Source: Escherichia phage vB_VIPECOMC06
DNA length: 64,000 nucleotides
Reading direction: 5' to 3' (one strand)
Sequence record: PQ416618.1
The notes beneath the pieces are model-generated. The model did not search any database. It was not told the origin of the DNA and saw nothing but the letters and a program-made list of their open reading frames with translations. Below are positions 39,215 to 53,718 of the stretch, piece after piece. Position 1 is the first letter of the stretch, and the number at the start of each line of letters is the position of its first letter. Position numbers and translations under genes: made by a program.

Positions 39215-39850
39215 ATGAAAACTACTCCTATTACTATCGCTATTGACGCAATCATAAAACAAGCTTCTTCTTTGGCCGCTATGGCCAAAGTAATTAGTCA
39301 AAACCCTGCTCGTTATAATGCTATTCTAGAAACTCTTCGACGCCCAGGACTTAGTAATTATGAAAGCCGAGTAATTATTACAGGTGTTGGTAAGAATGCT
39401 AATATTGCAACTAAAGCTTCTGAGACATTTGCTTCACTCGGTATCCCGAGTATGTACTTGAACACAGGGCATTATTCTCATGGTGATGCAGGATTCATTG
39501 CGCCTAATGATGTGTTGATTCATATTAGTCGTTCTGGTAAAACTGAAGAAATGATAGGTGTGGCTAAGCATCTTAAAATGATTCGTCCGAACGTCAAACA
39601 GATTCTGTTGCATTGTAACCCTGACATTCCACAAGAATACGAAGCTCTTTTTGATTATACGTTCTGTACAGGCATCGCAGTAGAGGTTGATGAGAATTCT
39701 CTGGCTCCGACCATGTCCACTACATTGTTGTTAGCGCTTATCGATACGTTTGCTATCAACCTTTCGTCTGAACGTGGATTTACCTCTAATGACTTCCTTA
39801 AGTTCCACCCTGGCGGTGCACTAGGTGCCATGTTACGAGGCGAACAATGA
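39215..39850 (+). CDS. SIS-domain sugar-phosphate isomerase (KdsD/GutQ-like arabinose-5-phosphate isomerase, no CBS domains)
   Basis: SIS core VIITGVGKNANIATKASETFASLGIPSMYLNTGHYSHGDAGFIAPNDVLIHISRSGKTEEM parallels the KdsD N-terminal domain. Confidence 0.7.
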   Translation: MKTTPITIAIDAIIKQASSLAAMAKVISQNPARYNAILETLRRPGLSNYESRVIITGVGKNANIATKASETFASLGIPSMYLNTGHYSHGDAGFIAPNDVLIHISRSGKTEEMIGVAKHLKMIRPNVKQILLHCNPDIPQEYEALFDYTFCTGIAVEVDENSLAPTMSTTLLLALIDTFAINLSSERGFTSNDFLKFHPGGALGAMLRGEQ

Positions 39851-42157: not shown

Positions 42158-43318
42158 ATGAATACCTTTAAAATCGGAACGAATTTTGATTTAGCTCTTC
42201 TTGATAAAATCGTAGAGCTCAATAAAACTTATCCTAATAGCTTGATAAACGAAGTATACGGCTCTACAAGAGAAATGGCTTTTGTAGCAGCCAGACCTGA
42301 TTTTAGGCTTCCTGACGTTGACAAAAAGATGTTAGAAGATTACGTTAAACGTTGTAACGAATTAGGTATTTGCTTTAACTATACACTCAACACGATAAAT
42401 CCTGGTTCAAAAAGAGAACTAGTTGAGTGGAAGAAGAAAGCTATTCAGGATTATGTTCAGTATCTTTGGTCAATAGGCGTATGGCGTATTACTATCGCTA
42501 ACCCTGTTGTTATGGAAATTGTTCGTGAAGTCAATAAAGACATTGAGATTGAAGTTTCAACAATTCTACATGTCGATGCTGTAACTCAAATCAAATACTT
42601 GCATGACCAGTATAATATCAAAAAGGTCTGCTGTGGAATTCATAAGAACCGTTCAGTTTCTTTCCTGAAGCGTGCAGCAGAGTTTTGCAATAAGAACAAT
42701 ATAATATTTGAAGTTCTTGTAAATGAGTTCTGTTCTAATGCTGGTAAAGGGTATACAACACATTGTAGTTATCGTGACTCTTGCTATATTTTCCATAGCA
42801 CCGATGTTACAGTAGATGATGCCAAATCCTTAAATGGATATCCAATGCAACACTGCATTAAAGCTCGTGATACAGACCCATTTAACTGGTTGAGAACTCG
42901 TTTTGTTCGTCCTCAAGATTTGAAACTTTATAATGATATTGGTATCACTCAATTTAAAGTTTCTGGACGTACAGGTAGCACCGACTACATTTTGAAAGTT
43001 CTTGAAGCTTATGCTTCTGAAAAGTTTGAAGGTAATTTGTTAGAACTGTGGAAGCCTTTAGAGACTATTTTCACTCTTGAAAACGAAACTGAGTTTTCAC
43101 ATACGGTAAATATTGAAACCTCTTTGTTAGATGGCTTTTTAGAAAAAAGGTGGTTCAAACATCCAGATTTCGATTGTGCTAATGAAATCTGTGGGACGAC
43201 GTGTACATATTGTGAAAGATATTATAAACGTCAGTTATCTAAAAACGGGTTATCAGAAAATTCTATATCTATTATTGATATAACTAACTCTGATGACGCT
43301 TTGAGGTACCCAGAATGA
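42158..43318 (+). CDS. Cys-rich enzyme of unknown function (386 aa)
   Basis: Cys cluster EFCSNAGKGYTTHCSYRDSC and C-terminal CANEICGTTCTYC; weak resemblance to the TIM-barrel peptidase-U32 (RlhA/UbiU) pattern; part of the sugar-nucleotide cassette. Confidence 0.55.
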   Translation: MNTFKIGTNFDLALLDKIVELNKTYPNSLINEVYGSTREMAFVAARPDFRLPDVDKKMLEDYVKRCNELGICFNYTLNTINPGSKRELVEWKKKAIQDYVQYLWSIGVWRITIANPVVMEIVREVNKDIEIEVSTILHVDAVTQIKYLHDQYNIKKVCCGIHKNRSVSFLKRAAEFCNKNNIIFEVLVNEFCSNAGKGYTTHCSYRDSCYIFHSTDVTVDDAKSLNGYPMQHCIKARDTDPFNWLRTRFVRPQDLKLYNDIGITQFKVSGRTGSTDYILKVLEAYASEKFEGNLLELWKPLETIFTLENETEFSHTVNIETSLLDGFLEKRWFKHPDFDCANEICGTTCTYCERYYKRQLSKNGLSENSISIIDITNSDDALRYPE

Positions 43319-43458
43319 TTTCTAGAAAAACTTTTAACCACCAACTTAATGAAGAGATTTTGACTATTAAAATTAACAGCAACGAACAAATTCTTAAACA
43401 GGCCCATAAGGGCCTGTTTGAAACTAAAGCGGCTAAAGTGATTAAAGAACCTAACTAG
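43315..43458 (+). CDS. hypothetical small ORF (47 aa)
   Basis: ATGA-coupled to upstream gene; contains CAGGCCC-ATAA-GGGCCTG hairpin; may be noncoding. Confidence 0.2.
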   Translation: MISRKTFNHQLNEEILTIKINSNEQILKQAHKGLFETKAAKVIKEPN

Positions 43459-43591
43459 AATACTACGCTGATGCATTTCTTCATAGTGTTCTTGGAAGTA
43501 TCGATGCCGAAGCTTTACGTTATATCAACATCGCTAAGAAATTCAAATAAGCTTTATGAATTGAGTATATAATAACTGTATTGAGGTAAAC

Positions 43592-44308
43592 ATGGGAAAA
43601 CATAACACAATGAAATATATTAAAGCCGCAGATTTTCAATCCGCATTTAAAGCAGTCAATCGTGAAATTTTAGAAAACCCGGAATTCGTAACTGATTCTC
43701 GTATTGGACGTTGTAATGAAATTGGGTCTATGACAGTAGTTGTTGACACTCCATCTTCATTCAAAATGACCGATCCACGTATTAACCGCATCTCTTATGA
43801 ATATGCTGAAGATTTCTGGAAGTTTATGATTTCTGGTGGTACTGATGCAGAAGAAGCATTTAAGGCATATCCTAACGTTGCTAAATTTATTTCTAAACCT
43901 AAATCAGACGCTTTGCCTGCAAACTTCAACACTTTCTATGGTCCACGAATTGCGGCCCAGTTACCAGCTCTTTTAAAAGAACTTAAAGAGAAACCTAACT
44001 CCCGAAGAGTTGTGTTCCAAATTCTTGAAAGTTCAGATCAGGCTTTGCTTGATTCAGACGAAACACTTGAATATCCATGTACTGACTCAGTGACTTATTA
44101 TATTCGTGATGGTAAGCTTTATACCCACTGTCATATGCGTTCACAGAACTGTGCTGTTGTTATGCAGTTGGATTTTTATCTCCAAGGAAAATTACTTCAT
44201 TATATCGCTAAAGAATGTGGTGTAGAAGTTGGTGATTATACTCATACCATGGTAAGTGCCCATGTGTTTGAACGTGATTTTGATTATGTTAAAGGATTCC
44301 TTGACTAA
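43592..44308 (+). CDS. 42: thymidylate-synthase-fold pyrimidine hydroxymethylase (dCMP hydroxymethylase-like)
   Basis: TS-family pattern NSRR, catalytic Cys in YPCTDSVTYYIRDGK, MRSQN; position of gene 42 between 43 and uvsX; N-terminal half differs from T4 gp42 as recalled. Confidence 0.6.
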   Translation: MGKHNTMKYIKAADFQSAFKAVNREILENPEFVTDSRIGRCNEIGSMTVVVDTPSSFKMTDPRINRISYEYAEDFWKFMISGGTDAEEAFKAYPNVAKFISKPKSDALPANFNTFYGPRIAAQLPALLKELKEKPNSRRVVFQILESSDQALLDSDETLEYPCTDSVTYYIRDGKLYTHCHMRSQNCAVVMQLDFYLQGKLLHYIAKECGVEVGDYTHTMVSAHVFERDFDYVKGFLD

Positions 44309-45207
44309 TGGCTATTTTCCGCGTACCTATCTTGAGTATGCGGTCTTATGAAACTGGACAGTATGCTATCCTTAAGGATGGCAACTTCCAACTTCATTTG
44401 CACCGTGCTAATCCAGGTGATGTGATTACATATCCACGTAATGCATCTGATATTAAAGAATGCGAACGTCTTTTCCCAGAATTTAAGTTTGTTCCATTAT
44501 GGTATAAAGATAACGCGTATAACACTCGTAAATATTTCTGGTCTGAAAATGAATTTGTGGTTGATTCATTAATTGATTATTATGATTGTGATTTTCTAAT
44601 CACAGATATCACTGGATATGACGGCGCTTTTGATGTGGAATTCAATTTCAATATCACTGCAGACCCTAATAAACCACGTTTTTATATTGACGAATTCTTA
44701 AAAACCGACATGTTGTCTGTTAATCGTTCACTTCAAACTACTGTGTTGAATGAACGTCAAAAAGAAGTGCTGGTTAACGCAGGTGCAGATGGTAATAAGA
44801 TTATCGTAACCCAGAAAGTTATACGTCCTTCCATCATGCAGCGTCTTGTAGGTGATTTGGCTCCTATTCATCTAGATGGTATTTTTCATCCATTTCGAAT
44901 TAGTGACCCATGCTATCGTTTTGAACAAGTGGTTGAATGCGCAATTCAATTAGGCCAACCGCTTTATATAACCGATCCAAATAATAGCTTCGACAGAAAT
45001 AAGTATCCTGAAGAAGCGCTGATTCGAATTTTTAATCCAACTAAAACTGAGTACTATCAAATTCTTAAAGGACGTCCGAAGATTCAATATTTCGAAAATC
45101 CTGAAGAAGTATTCCATCCAGGTCTTGGTGAGTTCATCTACTTTAATGCTTTAATTTCTTCGCCGTATAATATACCTAAATATGAAGATGTCGTAATCGA
45201 GGAATAA
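44308..45207 (+). CDS. hypothetical protein in the beta-gt slot (299 aa); candidate DNA sugar transferase
   Basis: TAATG-coupled to gene 42; occupies the locus where T4 has beta-glucosyltransferase; no motif recognised. Confidence 0.5.
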   Translation: MAIFRVPILSMRSYETGQYAILKDGNFQLHLHRANPGDVITYPRNASDIKECERLFPEFKFVPLWYKDNAYNTRKYFWSENEFVVDSLIDYYDCDFLITDITGYDGAFDVEFNFNITADPNKPRFYIDEFLKTDMLSVNRSLQTTVLNERQKEVLVNAGADGNKIIVTQKVIRPSIMQRLVGDLAPIHLDGIFHPFRISDPCYRFEQVVECAIQLGQPLYITDPNNSFDRNKYPEEALIRIFNPTKTEYYQILKGRPKIQYFENPEEVFHPGLGEFIYFNALISSPYNIPKYEDVVIEE

Positions 45208-45208
45208 A

Positions 45209-45757
45209 ATGGCTAAAATTATTTTAGTAGATGGCCCGGATAATGCCGGTAAAACAACTTTCATTAATGACATAATGGAAATTAGTGAAAGATATGTAAA
45301 GATTGATTTCCCTAAACGAACAGTTGATGGACGTTTCGATGTTAAGTCTCGAAATGAAGTTGGCTGTTTCGAAACGATGTTGAATTATTTAGACCCTACT
45401 AAGATTTATCTGTTAGACCGTGGATATATTAGTAACTGGGTTTATGGACGTATTCGACAAGATGCGGACTCGGTTCTTGACGTTTATGAACAGGATTATG
45501 TTCGTCTTTGCCAAAACCATGATGTGTTCACAATTATTTTAACACGTAACGAAATGACTGAAAGTTTTGAAGACGACCTTATTACTTTGTCTTCATTCGG
45601 TTTTAATACAGTCATTTCATATTTTGAAGAGTTTGCAATTCATAACAAAATTCAAACGTATCAATTACTTAATCATGATGGTGCTAACAAAGTTATAGGA
45701 TTTAATGCAAGCGAACGTAATAATTTGATTACAGAAATTATCAAATGGGCTCGTTAA
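45209..45757 (+). CDS. P-loop nucleoside/nucleotide kinase-like protein (182 aa)
   Basis: Walker A ILVDGPDNAGKTT, LLDRGY; resembles dNK/TMK-type kinases, not T4 gp1. Confidence 0.55.
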   Translation: MAKIILVDGPDNAGKTTFINDIMEISERYVKIDFPKRTVDGRFDVKSRNEVGCFETMLNYLDPTKIYLLDRGYISNWVYGRIRQDADSVLDVYEQDYVRLCQNHDVFTIILTRNEMTESFEDDLITLSSFGFNTVISYFEEFAIHNKIQTYQLLNHDGANKVIGFNASERNNLITEIIKWAR

Positions 45758-53107: not shown

Positions 53108-53196
53108 AATATCTCCTTAGTTACCTTATTATTTATTACGCTTTATAAAATTAATGTTAGAATTAACTCTCTTATACTGAATTGAAAGGAAAAATA

Positions 53197-53718
53197 ATGG
53201 CGCACTTTAACGAATGTTCACAACTTATTTCTGGTGTTGATAAAGCAGAAGAAGCTTATTTTAATGCTCTGATTCACGAAGATAAAGACCCACTGCAGGT
53301 AATGCTTGATATGCAGAAATCTTTACAAGTTCGTCTGGCAAATGACAAGCCTGAACATAACAAACATCCTGATGAATTGGCCACTGCTGGTGATGTTGTT
53401 GATTGGCTGCGTAATCAGAAAGATTATATTGATGATGAATTCCGTGAACTGTTGACTTCACTTGGCGGTATGAGCAATGGTGAAAAAGCCGCTAGCTCTG
53501 TATGGAAACCGTGGAAGGCACAACATGCTGAATATCGAAATCGTCGTATCGATGAACTGTCTCCTGAAGACCAGCTTGAAATTAAATTCGAGATGATTGA
53601 TATCCTCCACTTTGTCCTGAACATGTTCCAAGGTCTGGGTCTTTCTGCTGAAGAAATCTTTAAACTGTATTACTTGAAAAACCAACACAACTTTGAACGT
53701 CAGGATAATGGTTACTAA
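53197..53718 (+). CDS. 56: dCTP pyrophosphatase (dCTPase) gp56
   Basis: MAHFNECSQLISGVDKAEE...EIFKLYYLKNQHNFERQDNGY matches the T4 gp56 pattern; ATG at 53197. Confidence 0.85.
   Translation: MAHFNECSQLISGVDKAEEAYFNALIHEDKDPLQVMLDMQKSLQVRLANDKPEHNKHPDELATAGDVVDWLRNQKDYIDDEFRELLTSLGGMSNGEKAASSVWKPWKAQHAEYRNRRIDELSPEDQLEIKFEMIDILHFVLNMFQGLGLSAEEIFKLYYLKNQHNFERQDNGY

What the first reader, a model, noticed from the sequence alone, without database searches (positions are those of the whole stretch)
43592..44308. Gene-42-position hydroxymethylase is TS-fold but diverged at the N-terminus
The C-terminal half keeps thymidylate-synthase-family landmarks (catalytic Cys in YPCTDSVTYYIRDG, MRSQN), but the N-terminal about 100 residues do not resemble T4 gp42 as I recall it. 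That could mean altered substrate or product specificity in the first modification step.
Basis: partly seen in the sequence, partly recalled or inferred. Interest (0 to 1): 0.5.

Follow-up and report, generated by a model that had tools for sequence, protein, structure and literature searches.

The report
Known flavin-dependent dCMP 5-hydroxylase, not hydroxymethylase
This gene of an RB69-like coliphage is a thymidylate-synthase-fold enzyme that puts a hydroxyl group, not a hydroxymethyl group, on dCMP as the first step of arabinosylated phage DNA, and this was published with crystal structures in 2025-2026.

Summary
The ORF is real: 43592..44308, + strand, 238 aa. It carries the quoted motifs and sits where T4 has gene 42. 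The N-terminal 120 residues barely match T4 gp42 (E 0.06). The C-terminal half is also only about 28% identical, and the whole protein 25%.

It is not a diverged gp42. It is 236/238 identical to RB69 ORF048c (gp48) and about 99% identical to phage HY126 AfhB, whose crystal structures are 9IQC and 9IQU ("monooxygenase dependent on riboflavin with dCMP and FAD"; "dCMP hydroxylase-AfhB"). Published work shows that these enzymes make 5-hydroxy-dCMP from dCMP with O2 and a flavin, not methylene-tetrahydrofolate. The product is the precursor of arabinosyl-5-hydroxycytosine DNA.

The published diagnostic signature is present: Asn186 (the N of "MRSQN") replaces the folate-binding Asp169 of E. coli ThyA. 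Cys163, Glu160 and Asp194 are also present. All four are invariant in 40 relatives. The N-terminal half is as conserved within this clade as the C-terminal half.

Verdict: observation confirmed, "altered product specificity" right in spirit, "hydroxymethylase" wrong, already known.

Side lead: the adjacent U32-family iron-sulfur-type gene has no assigned function.

The parts
43592..44308 (+). 5-hydroxy-dCMP synthase (dCMP 5-hydroxylase; AfhB / RB69 gp48 orthologue), 238 aa, thymidylate-synthase fold
   Evidence: ORF. It is 236/238 identical to RB69 ORF048c and about 99% identical to PDB 9IQC/9IQU. The AF2 model has pLDDT 85.6 and TM 0.93-0.95 to 9IQC.
44078..44080 (+). Codon of Cys163, the catalytic nucleophile (E. 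coli ThyA Cys146 equivalent)
   Evidence: Alignment. Invariant in 40 family members.
44147..44149 (+). Codon of Asn186 (E. coli Asp169 equivalent), the published 'D169N' diagnostic of 5hodCMP synthases
   Evidence: Alignment. Invariant. The signature is described in PMC13326640. T4 gp42 has Asp here.
44171..44173 (+). Codon of Asp194 (E. coli Asn177 equivalent), the cytosine-versus-uracil specificity determinant
   Evidence: Alignment. Invariant. Role as described in PMC13326640.
44069..44071 (+). Codon of Glu160 (E. coli Leu143 equivalent), acidic as in enzymes that do not make a methyl product
   Evidence: Alignment. Invariant. PMC13326640.
43865..43960 (+). Codons of aa 92-123, which contain the clade-specific block aa 94-123 (YPNVAKF..KPKS..LP.NFNTFYGPRI..Q). 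This is the most conserved segment of the family, is absent from gp42 and ThyA, and has low AF2 confidence. Inferred to be a cofactor-site loop.
   Evidence: Mean majority-residue fraction is 0.87 for aa 94-123. K102, P103, L108, P109 and N111-R119 are invariant. pLDDT is 53-66. The function of the block is inference only.
43583..43586 (+). Shine-Dalgarno GAGG, 5 nt before the ATG
   Evidence: Read directly from the sequence.
43551..43573 (+). Possible T4-type middle promoter: MotA-box-like GCTTTA (43551-43556), 11 nt spacer, TATAAT (43568-43573)
   Evidence: Read directly from the sequence and conserved in RB69 and 348Ecol098PP. The sigma-70 scan did not flag it. This is inference from the known form of T4 middle promoters.
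39215..39850 (+). Pathway context: arabinose-5-phosphate isomerase (SIS domain; RB69 gp55 equivalent)
   Evidence: Pfam SIS. phrog_5670 at E 2e-116. PMC13326640.
40032..41717 (+). Pathway context: bifunctional sugar kinase / UDP-arabinose pyrophosphorylase (AfhE, RB69 gp52:53 equivalent)
   Evidence: Pfam NTP_transferase in the N-terminal part. PMC13326640.
41717..42103 (+). Pathway context: HAD-type sugar phosphatase (AfhF, RB69 gp51 equivalent)
   Evidence: phrog_1238. Annotation of 348Ecol098PP. PMC13326640.
44308..45207 (+). Pathway context: putative DNA arabinosyltransferase 1 (RB69 gp46:47 equivalent), at the position of T4 beta-gt
   Evidence: Synteny. phrog_3891, of unknown function. 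The assignment comes from PMC13326640.
45209..45757 (+). Pathway context: thymidylate-kinase-like P-loop kinase (RB69 gp45 equivalent), role not established
   Evidence: phrog_761. PMC13326640 Table 1.
53182..53718 (+). Pathway context: dCTP pyrophosphatase (gp56-like), which supplies dCMP and removes dCTP
   Evidence: phrog_173 at E 1.8e-45. Same position relative to the primase gene as in LC53.

Best explanation
The gene encodes a dCMP 5-hydroxylase, also called 5-hydroxy-dCMP synthase (AfhB or RB69 gp48 type). [quoted passage not shown]

Proposed mechanism:
- Cys163 adds to C6 of dCMP, as in all TS-family enzymes. dCMP is selected by Asp194.
- This activates C5, which then takes an oxygen atom derived from O2 via a reduced flavin (hydroperoxide).
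- Elimination of the Cys gives 5-hydroxy-dCMP.

Downstream steps: the phage dNMP kinase and host NDP kinase raise the product to the triphosphate. The dCTPase encoded at 53182..53718 removes dCTP. The phage polymerase incorporates 5-hydroxy-dC. The neighbouring transferase adds arabinofuranose from UDP-arabinose, which is made by the upstream isomerase, kinase-pyrophosphorylase and phosphatase genes.

Shown in the literature for proteins 99% identical to this one: the 5hodC product, incorporation of 18O from 18O2, a bound flavin, and crystal structures with dCMP and FAD.

Inferred here: that this copy behaves the same, the order of the chemical steps, and that the clade-specific N-terminal block (aa 94-123) forms part of the flavin site that replaced the folate site.
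For: - Identity to RB69 ORF048c is 236/238.
- Identity to PDB 9IQC/9IR2/9IQU is about 99% (E 1e-161). Foldseek of the AF2 model gives 9IQC 'Monooxygenase dependent on riboflavin with dCMP and FAD' and 9IQU 'phage HY126 dCMP hydroxylase-AfhB with substrate dCMP' at TM 0.88-0.96.
- PMC13326640 reports that RB69 gp48 expressed in E. coli puts 5hodC into DNA, that 18O2 labels the product, that a flavin (FMN-like) co-purifies, and that He et al. (Nat Chem Biol 2026) reconstituted the reaction. It also reports that D169N is diagnostic, and all D169N homologues tested made 5hodC.
- The query has Asn186 (D169N), Cys163, Glu160 and Asp194, all invariant in 40 relatives.
- The window is a Mosigvirus, 97.9% identical to phage F2 and 97.7% to HY126 over 5.6 kb.
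- The complete arabinosylation cluster and a dCTPase are present.
- There is no other TS-family gene in the window.
Against: - Nothing here tests enzymatic activity of this particular allele. It differs from RB69 gp48 at 2 positions and from the 9IQC protein at 3.
- The sources disagree on the flavin form: FMN-like in PMC13326640, but FAD and 'riboflavin' in the PDB titles.
- The primary structural paper (He et al. 2026) could not be read. The role I assign to residues 94-123 is therefore untested.
- Many GenBank records, and the PDB molecule name, still call the protein 'thymidylate synthase' or 'dCMP hydroxymethylase'.
Confidence: 0.95

Rival explanations
1. It is a true but diverged T4-type dCMP hydroxymethylase (gp42 orthologue). 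It would use methylene-THF and water to make 5-hydroxymethyl-dCMP, which is then arabinosylated. This is the 2018 reading of RB69 DNA.
For: - The gene is syntenic with T4 gene 42 and is followed by a putative glycosyltransferase at the beta-gt position.
- It has the TS fold, the catalytic Cys, and Asp at the N177 position, as gp42 does.
- Thomas et al. 2018 (PMC6024577, abstract) interpreted RB69 DNA as arabinosyl-hmC.
Against: - Identity to gp42 is only 25%.
- The folate-binding Asp169 equivalent is Asn in every family member.
- RB69 gp48 is 99% identical and yields 5hodC (243 Da), eluting apart from the 5hmdC made by T4 gp42, with 18O coming from O2.
- The PDB entries contain a flavin, not folate.
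- NMR and MS in PMC13326640 show an ether link directly at C5 (abstract).
Confidence: 0.02
2. It is an ordinary thymidylate synthase (dUMP to dTMP), as many database records and the PDB molecule name say.
For: Pfam PF00303 scores above its cut-off (57 bits against 24.3). PHROG 160 is 'thymidylate synthase'. GenBank annotations say the same.
Against: - It fails every NCBIfam thymidylate-synthase equivalog cut-off. The best is 70 bits against 174.55.
- The Asn177 equivalent is Asp, which confers cytosine specificity. The Leu143 equivalent is Glu and the Asp169 equivalent is Asn.
- It lacks the C-terminal ~40 residues of ThyA.
- There is experimental evidence for the orthologues.
Confidence: 0.01
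3. The enzyme is a 5-hydroxylase aerobically, but it is not the only source of 5-hydroxy-pyrimidine in this phage. The adjacent U32-family iron-sulfur-type protein would provide an O2-independent route, so this gene would be dispensable under anaerobiosis.
For: - A U32 gene lies directly upstream.
- Its family has 10 invariant Cys.
- Serratia phage LC53 has a chorismate mutase gene between its U32 gene and its TS homologue.
- The characterised U32 proteins RlhA, TrhP and UbiU/V are O2-independent, prephenate-dependent C5 or ring hydroxylases (my own knowledge; PMC13326640 cites Kimura 2017 and Lauhon 2019 for rRNA/tRNA pyrimidine hydroxylation).
- Distant U32 relatives sit in phage nucleotide and DNA-glycosylation modules that lack any TS homologue.
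Against: - Dhakaviruses and Acinetobacter phages carry the hydroxylase without a U32 gene.
- Sequence similarity to UbiU is marginal (E 5e-4, far below the cut-off).
- PMC13326640 lists the protein only as a 'sugar or heterocycle reductase'.
- There are no biochemical data.
Confidence: 0.2

Closest known systems
Phage HY126 AfhB (PDB 9IQC, 9IR2, 9IQU; He et al., Nat Chem Biol 2026) and RB69 gp48 / ORF048c (Lee et al., NAR 2026, PMC13326640)
   Same: Essentially the same protein: 235/238 and 236/238 identical, same length, same gene order, same genus.
   Different: Two or three conservative substitutions (E30Q, E88K and K208N against the 9IQC protein; S17T and K208N against RB69). None is at a signature residue.
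Acinetobacter phage DLP3 gp80 and other Straboviridae 5hodCMP synthases (Dhakavirus, Lazarusvirus, Winklervirus LC53, Shewanella phage Thanatos)
   Same: Conserved over the full length at 53-88% identity, including the N-terminal half and all signature residues. They lie in a similar arabinosylation cluster.
   Different: The number of arabinosyltransferases differs, and so does the presence of the U32 and isomerase genes. DLP3 DNA is tri-arabinosylated, RB69 DNA mono- and di-arabinosylated.
Rhizobium phage RL38J1 gp216 (5hodCMP synthase of Pootjesviridae)
   Same: It carries the D169N signature and was shown to make 5hodC. It aligns with query residues 33-238 (H73).
   Different: Only about 30% identical. 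The product is hexosylated (galactose and glucose) rather than arabinosylated.
T4 gp42 dCMP hydroxymethylase
   Same: TS fold, catalytic Cys, Asp at the N177 position, an acidic residue at the L143 position, dCMP substrate, same genomic slot, and the first step of cytosine hypermodification.
   Different: 25% identity. gp42 keeps Asp169 (MRSND) and uses methylene-THF to add CH2OH. The query has Asn186, uses flavin and O2, and adds OH. The query has 9- and 5-residue insertions and a clade-specific block in aa 77-120.
MilA, CMP 5-hydroxymethylase of mildiomycin biosynthesis (PDB 5JNH, 5B6D)
   Same: The best solved-structure match outside the clade: TMq 0.81, 24% identity, alignment over the full length. 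It is cytosine-specific.
   Different: About 320 aa, folate-dependent hydroxymethylation, ribonucleotide substrate.
E. coli ThyA thymidylate synthase
   Same: Same core fold. Arg138/Arg139 (SRR), Cys163, Arg183-Ser184 and His224 are retained.
   Different: N177D, L143E and D169N substitutions. No detectable similarity in residues 1-120. The C-terminal ~40 residues are missing. The cofactor and product differ.

Membership tests
5hodCMP synthase / AfhB (flavin-dependent dCMP 5-hydroxylase branch of the TS superfamily) | Thymidylate-synthase fold over the whole protein | tested here: met
   Pfam PF00303. The AF2 model (pLDDT 85.6) matches 9IQC at TM 0.93-0.95 and MilA at TMq 0.81. hhalign to gp42 gives 97.6% probability over aa 25-238.
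5hodCMP synthase / AfhB (flavin-dependent dCMP 5-hydroxylase branch of the TS superfamily) | Asn at the position of E. coli ThyA Asp169 (the published diagnostic 'D169N') | tested here: met
   Asn186 in MRSQN. Invariant in 40 relatives. The criterion comes from PMC13326640.
5hodCMP synthase / AfhB (flavin-dependent dCMP 5-hydroxylase branch of the TS superfamily) | Catalytic Cys (C146 equivalent), Asp at the N177 position (cytosine specificity), acidic residue at the L143 position | tested here: met
   Cys163, Asp194 and Glu160 are all invariant.
5hodCMP synthase / AfhB (flavin-dependent dCMP 5-hydroxylase branch of the TS superfamily) | Close sequence relationship to experimentally characterised members | tested here: met
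   99% identical to RB69 gp48 and to the HY126 AfhB structures.
5hodCMP synthase / AfhB (flavin-dependent dCMP 5-hydroxylase branch of the TS superfamily) | Genomic association with NDP-sugar synthesis genes, a DNA glycosyltransferase and a dCTPase | tested here: met
   SIS isomerase, NTP-transferase/kinase, HAD phosphatase, the 299-aa putative transferase, a Tmk-like kinase and a dCTPase are all in the window.
5hodCMP synthase / AfhB (flavin-dependent dCMP 5-hydroxylase branch of the TS superfamily) | Flavin binding, O2 dependence and 5-hydroxy-dCMP as product | not testable with these tools
   Reported for the 99%-identical orthologues (PMC13326640; PDB titles). Not measured for this allele.
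T4-type dCMP hydroxymethylase (gp42) | Orthologue-level similarity to T4 gp42 along the whole length | tested here: not met
   25% identity. The N-terminal 120 aa give E 0.061. True gp42 genes of other phages match the query at only ~25-27% (H75, H76).
T4-type dCMP hydroxymethylase (gp42) | Asp at the folate-binding D169 position (MRSND) | tested here: not met
   The query has Asn186. T4 gp42 has Asp.
T4-type dCMP hydroxymethylase (gp42) | Same genomic slot between gene 43 and uvsX, followed by a DNA glycosyltransferase | tested here: met
   Synteny alone does not establish membership. The glycosyltransferase assignment of the downstream gene rests on PMC13326640, not on a family match made here.
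T4-type dCMP hydroxymethylase (gp42) | Methylene-THF-dependent formation of 5-hydroxymethyl-dCMP | not testable with these tools
   The literature on RB69 gp48 reports 5hodC instead, distinct from the T4 gp42 product in the same assay.
Thymidylate synthase ThyA | Score above the curated equivalog cut-offs | tested here: not met
   Best NCBIfam score is 70.1 bits against a cut-off of 174.55. All seven other matches listed, six of them ThyA models, are also far below their cut-offs.
Thymidylate synthase ThyA | Asn177 (uracil specificity), Leu143 and Asp169 | tested here: not met
   Asp194, Glu160 and Asn186 occupy these positions.

The most novel reading that the evidence does not exclude
The O2-dependent TS-fold hydroxylase may be only half of the first modification step. 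The neighbouring U32-family protein (42158..43318) has ten invariant cysteines. In some relatives it is accompanied by a chorismate mutase. It could be an O2-independent, prephenate-dependent pyrimidine C5 hydroxylase that lets these enterobacterial phages make 5-hydroxy-dC without oxygen. That would mirror the TrhO/TrhP dual pathway for tRNA ho5U. More distant members of the same U32 subfamily sit in phage deoxynucleotide and DNA-glycosylation modules that have no TS homologue at all. In those modules the U32 protein might be the sole base hydroxylase.
Probability: 0.2. Interest if true: 0.7.

Novelty: already known. Interest (0 to 1): 0.15.

Why it matters
The biology is remarkable. A folate enzyme fold has been re-purposed as a flavin monooxygenase, founding a second family of glycosylated phage cytosines linked by an ether at C5. 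These bases shape sensitivity to restriction, CRISPR and type IV systems. It has already been described for proteins 99% identical to this one, with structures, so the window adds no new knowledge.

The practical value is annotation. Hundreds of phage records still label this gene 'thymidylate synthase' or 'dCMP hydroxymethylase'. The Asn-for-Asp169 signature separates hydroxylases from hydroxymethylases at a glance.

The open question nearby is the unassigned U32-family iron-sulfur-type gene.

Tried and rejected
- **Second TS-family gene.** I searched the window for a true gp42 or td with tblastn, using T4 gp42, E. coli ThyA and the query. Nothing else matched at E below 0.3.
- **N-terminal domain swap.** I rejected this. 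hhalign aligns residues 25-238 collinearly with gp42. The AF2 model aligns over its full length with MilA and ThyA structures.
- **Decaying N-terminus.** I rejected this. Within the clade the N-half (aa 14-120) is as conserved as the C-half (0.716 in both). Residues 61-120 are the most conserved part, at 0.85.
- **Primary structural paper.** He et al. 2026 is not held. Searches for '9IQC' and 'AfhB' found nothing relevant.
- **Sigma-70 promoter scan.** It found no + strand promoter upstream. The middle-promoter reading is mine, from the sequence.
- **Small ORF between the U32 gene and this gene.** I tested whether it is a remnant of the chorismate mutase seen in phage LC53. There is no similarity and no Pfam match.
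- **U32 protein against reference sets.** Solved structures gave no sequence match. NCBIfam gave only a marginal UbiU hit.
- **Literature link for the U32 gene.** Searches linking U32 or prephenate with arabinosylated phage DNA found nothing.

Full report
**What is there**

The ORF at 43592..44308 on the + strand is real.
- It has an ATG start preceded by GAGG 5 nt upstream.
- It codes for 238 aa, and its stop overlaps the ATG of the next gene.
- The quoted motifs are present: YPCTDSVTYYIRDG at aa 161-174 and MRSQN at aa 182-186.
- Pfam recognises Thymidylat_synt only in aa 122-235 (E 1.8e-15).
- It is the only TS-family gene in the 64-kb window (tblastn).

**Where the window comes from**

The surrounding 5.6 kb is 97.9% identical to phage F2 and 97.5-97.9% identical to the other listed Mosigvirus (RB69-like) coliphages, such as ST0 and HY126 (taxonomy).

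The gene order here is: DNA polymerase, SIS isomerase, nucleotidyltransferase/kinase, HAD phosphatase, U32 'peptidase', a small ORF, this gene, a 299-aa protein, a thymidylate-kinase-like protein, uvsX, 40, 41.

T4 has 43, imm.1, imm, 42, beta-gt, segA, uvsX, 40, 41. So 'gene-42 position' is correct.

- Against T4 gp42, the whole protein gives 25% identity over 218 columns (E 9e-13).
- Residues 1-120 alone give E 0.061 over 41 aa. Residues 121-238 give E 1.5e-11 at 27.6% identity.
- The observation therefore stands, but the divergence is not confined to the N-terminus.
- It is not a domain swap either. A profile of 40 relatives aligns residues 25-238 collinearly with gp42 17-231 (97.6% probability). 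The AlphaFold model (pLDDT 85.6) superposes over its full length on MilA (TMq 0.81) and on ThyA structures.
- RB69 has no gp42 orthologue at this position. Its gene there, ORF048c, is 236/238 identical to the query.

**What it is**

- The PDB holds three entries of an almost identical 238-aa protein: 9IQC, 9IR2 and 9IQU (E 1e-161).
- Foldseek gives their titles as 'Monooxygenase dependent on riboflavin with dCMP and FAD' and 'phage HY126 dCMP hydroxylase-AfhB with substrate dCMP'. They were released on 2025-07-16, with TM 0.88-0.96 to my model.
- Lee et al., NAR 2026 (PMC13326640), report that RB69 and Acinetobacter phage DLP3 DNA carry arabinosylated 5-hydroxycytosine. The sugar is ether-linked directly to C5 (abstract).
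- In E. coli, RB69 gp48 yields 5-hydroxy-dC in DNA. This is distinct from the 5hmdC made by T4 gp42 in the same assay.
- 18O from 18O2 ends up in the product. The enzyme is yellow and releases an FMN-like flavin.
- He et al. (Nat Chem Biol 2026) found the flavin in the HY126 crystal structure and reconstituted the O2-dependent reaction. I could not read that paper.

**Signature residues**

The NAR paper defines a diagnostic: Asn in place of E. coli ThyA Asp169. Every D169N homologue the authors tested made 5hodC.

| Query residue | E. coli ThyA equivalent | Meaning |
|---|---|---|
| Asn186 (the N of MRSQN) | Asp169 | Hydroxylase signature |
| Cys163 | Cys146 | Catalytic nucleophile |
| Asp194 | Asn177 | Cytosine specificity |
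| Glu160 | Leu143 | Non-methyl product |

All four residues are invariant in a 40-sequence alignment spanning 53-88% identity. T4 gp42 has MRSND. The protein also fails every NCBIfam thymidylate-synthase cut-off.

**The N-terminal half**

- Within the clade it is not degenerate. The mean majority-residue fraction is 0.716 for aa 14-120 and 0.716 for aa 121-238. It is 0.85 for aa 61-120.
- The block aa 94-123 (YPNVAKF..KPKS..LP.NFNTFYGPRI..Q) is the most conserved segment. K102, P103, L108, P109 and N111-R119 are invariant.
- This block carries insertions relative to gp42.
- It is also the least confident part of the model, at pLDDT 53-66.
- I infer that it is a mobile loop of the new cofactor site, in the region where ThyA binds folate. 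This is inference; I could not inspect 9IQC.

**Distribution**

- tblastn finds the protein in 468 phage records.
- A full-length clade at 60% identity or more covers 342 records. It includes Mosigvirus, Dhakavirus, Klebsiella, Serratia and Enterobacter phages, Acinetobacter Lazarusvirus and Thanatos.
- Rhizobium and Agrobacterium phages, including RL38J1, follow at about 30%. True gp42s match at about 25%.
- Annotations vary between 'thymidylate synthase', 'dCMP hydroxymethylase' and 'hypothetical protein'.

**Mechanism**

Cys163 adds to C6 of dCMP. The activated C5 is then oxygenated by a flavin-derived species made from O2. Elimination gives 5-hydroxy-dCMP. The phage dNMP kinase phosphorylates it; this was shown for RB69 gp159. 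The dCTPase at 53182..53718 removes dCTP. After incorporation, the putative transferase at 44308..45207 adds arabinofuranose from UDP-arabinose, which the upstream genes make.

The product, the oxygen source and the flavin are published for orthologues. The order of the chemical steps is inferred from TS and flavin-monooxygenase chemistry.

**Verdict**

The matter is already known, so interest is low.

**Noticed on the way: the U32-family gene**

The U32-family gene directly upstream (42158..43318) has no assigned role.
- PMC13326640 lists it only as a 'sugar or heterocycle reductase'.
- It occurs in 221 phage records, all at 80% identity or more.
- It is absent from Dhakavirus VR5 and Acinetobacter phage Octan, which do carry the hydroxylase.
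- Its family has ten invariant cysteines, including C340-x4-C345-x3-C349-x2-C352.
- In Serratia phage LC53 a genuine chorismate mutase gene lies between its U32 gene and its TS homologue.
- Relatives at 46-58% identity lie in phage replication, deoxynucleotide or DNA-glycosylation modules. None of these has a TS homologue within 6-7 kb.
- The characterised U32 enzymes RlhA, TrhP and UbiU/V are O2-independent, prephenate-dependent hydroxylases (my own knowledge). An anaerobic route to 5-hydroxy-pyrimidines is therefore a testable idea.
- No held paper makes this link. The two key subscription papers could not be checked.

Noticed in passing
window 42158-43318 (+): A U32-family 'peptidase' gene lies directly upstream of the hydroxylase. 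Pfam U32 gives E 6e-11. It has ten invariant Cys, including a C-terminal C-x4-C-x3-C-x2-C. There is no PDB sequence match and only a marginal UbiU hit. It is present in 221 phage records, all at 80% identity or more, but absent from Dhakavirus and Acinetobacter phages that carry the hydroxylase. Its function is unassigned in the literature I could read. It may be an O2-independent hydroxylase.
   Followed up: partly
L004 6660-7004 (Serratia phage LC53); also annotated in Klebsiella phage PWKp16 and Erwinia phage Virsaitis27: A bona fide chorismate mutase type II gene (Pfam CM_2, E 1.7e-11) sits between the U32 gene and the TS-fold hydroxylase. Prephenate is the co-substrate of the known U32 hydroxylases. 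This window has no such gene.
   Followed up: partly
L007, L008, L010, L011, L012, L013 (metagenomic contigs): U32 relatives at 46-58% identity lie in phage nucleotide-metabolism modules. Neighbours include dCMP deaminase, Tmk-like kinases, dNK, NT5C, UDG and pol III alpha. L010 has a DAHP_synth_1 gene next door. In L012 the U32 gene sits between two glycosyltransferase-like genes, with a UDP-galactopyranose mutase nearby. No TS-family gene lies within 6-7 kb in any of these loci.
   Followed up: partly
window 43315-43550 (+): The small gene between the U32 gene and the hydroxylase is interrupted here. The 47-aa ORF (43315..43458) matches the first part of RB69 ORF049 (79 aa). The rest continues in another frame (43461..43550), because of a 4-nt deletion relative to RB69. 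Phage 348Ecol098PP has a 1-nt insertion at the same spot. This is either a decaying gene or a hotspot for sequencing errors.
   Followed up: partly
window 45209-45757 (+): The role of the thymidylate-kinase-like P-loop kinase (RB69 gp45 equivalent) in the pathway is not established, because the T4-type dNMP kinase already phosphorylates 5hodCMP. Tmk-like genes also accompany the distant U32 relatives (L007, L010, L013).
   Followed up: no
window 43551-43573 (+): GCTTTA, an 11-nt spacer, then TATAAT upstream of the gene looks like a T4-type MotA-dependent middle promoter. It is conserved in RB69 and 348Ecol098PP. The sigma-70 scan did not flag it.
   Followed up: no
public records matched: The annotation of this gene is inconsistent across hundreds of phage genomes and in the PDB molecule name: 'thymidylate synthase', 'dCMP hydroxymethylase', 'deoxycytidylate 5-hydroxymethyltransferase' or 'hypothetical protein'. 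The Asn-for-Asp169 signature would allow systematic re-annotation.
   Followed up: no
window 43865-43960 (aa 92-123 of the protein): The most conserved block of the family coincides with the lowest-confidence part of the AlphaFold model (pLDDT 53-66). This is consistent with a loop that becomes ordered only when the cofactor is bound.
   Followed up: no
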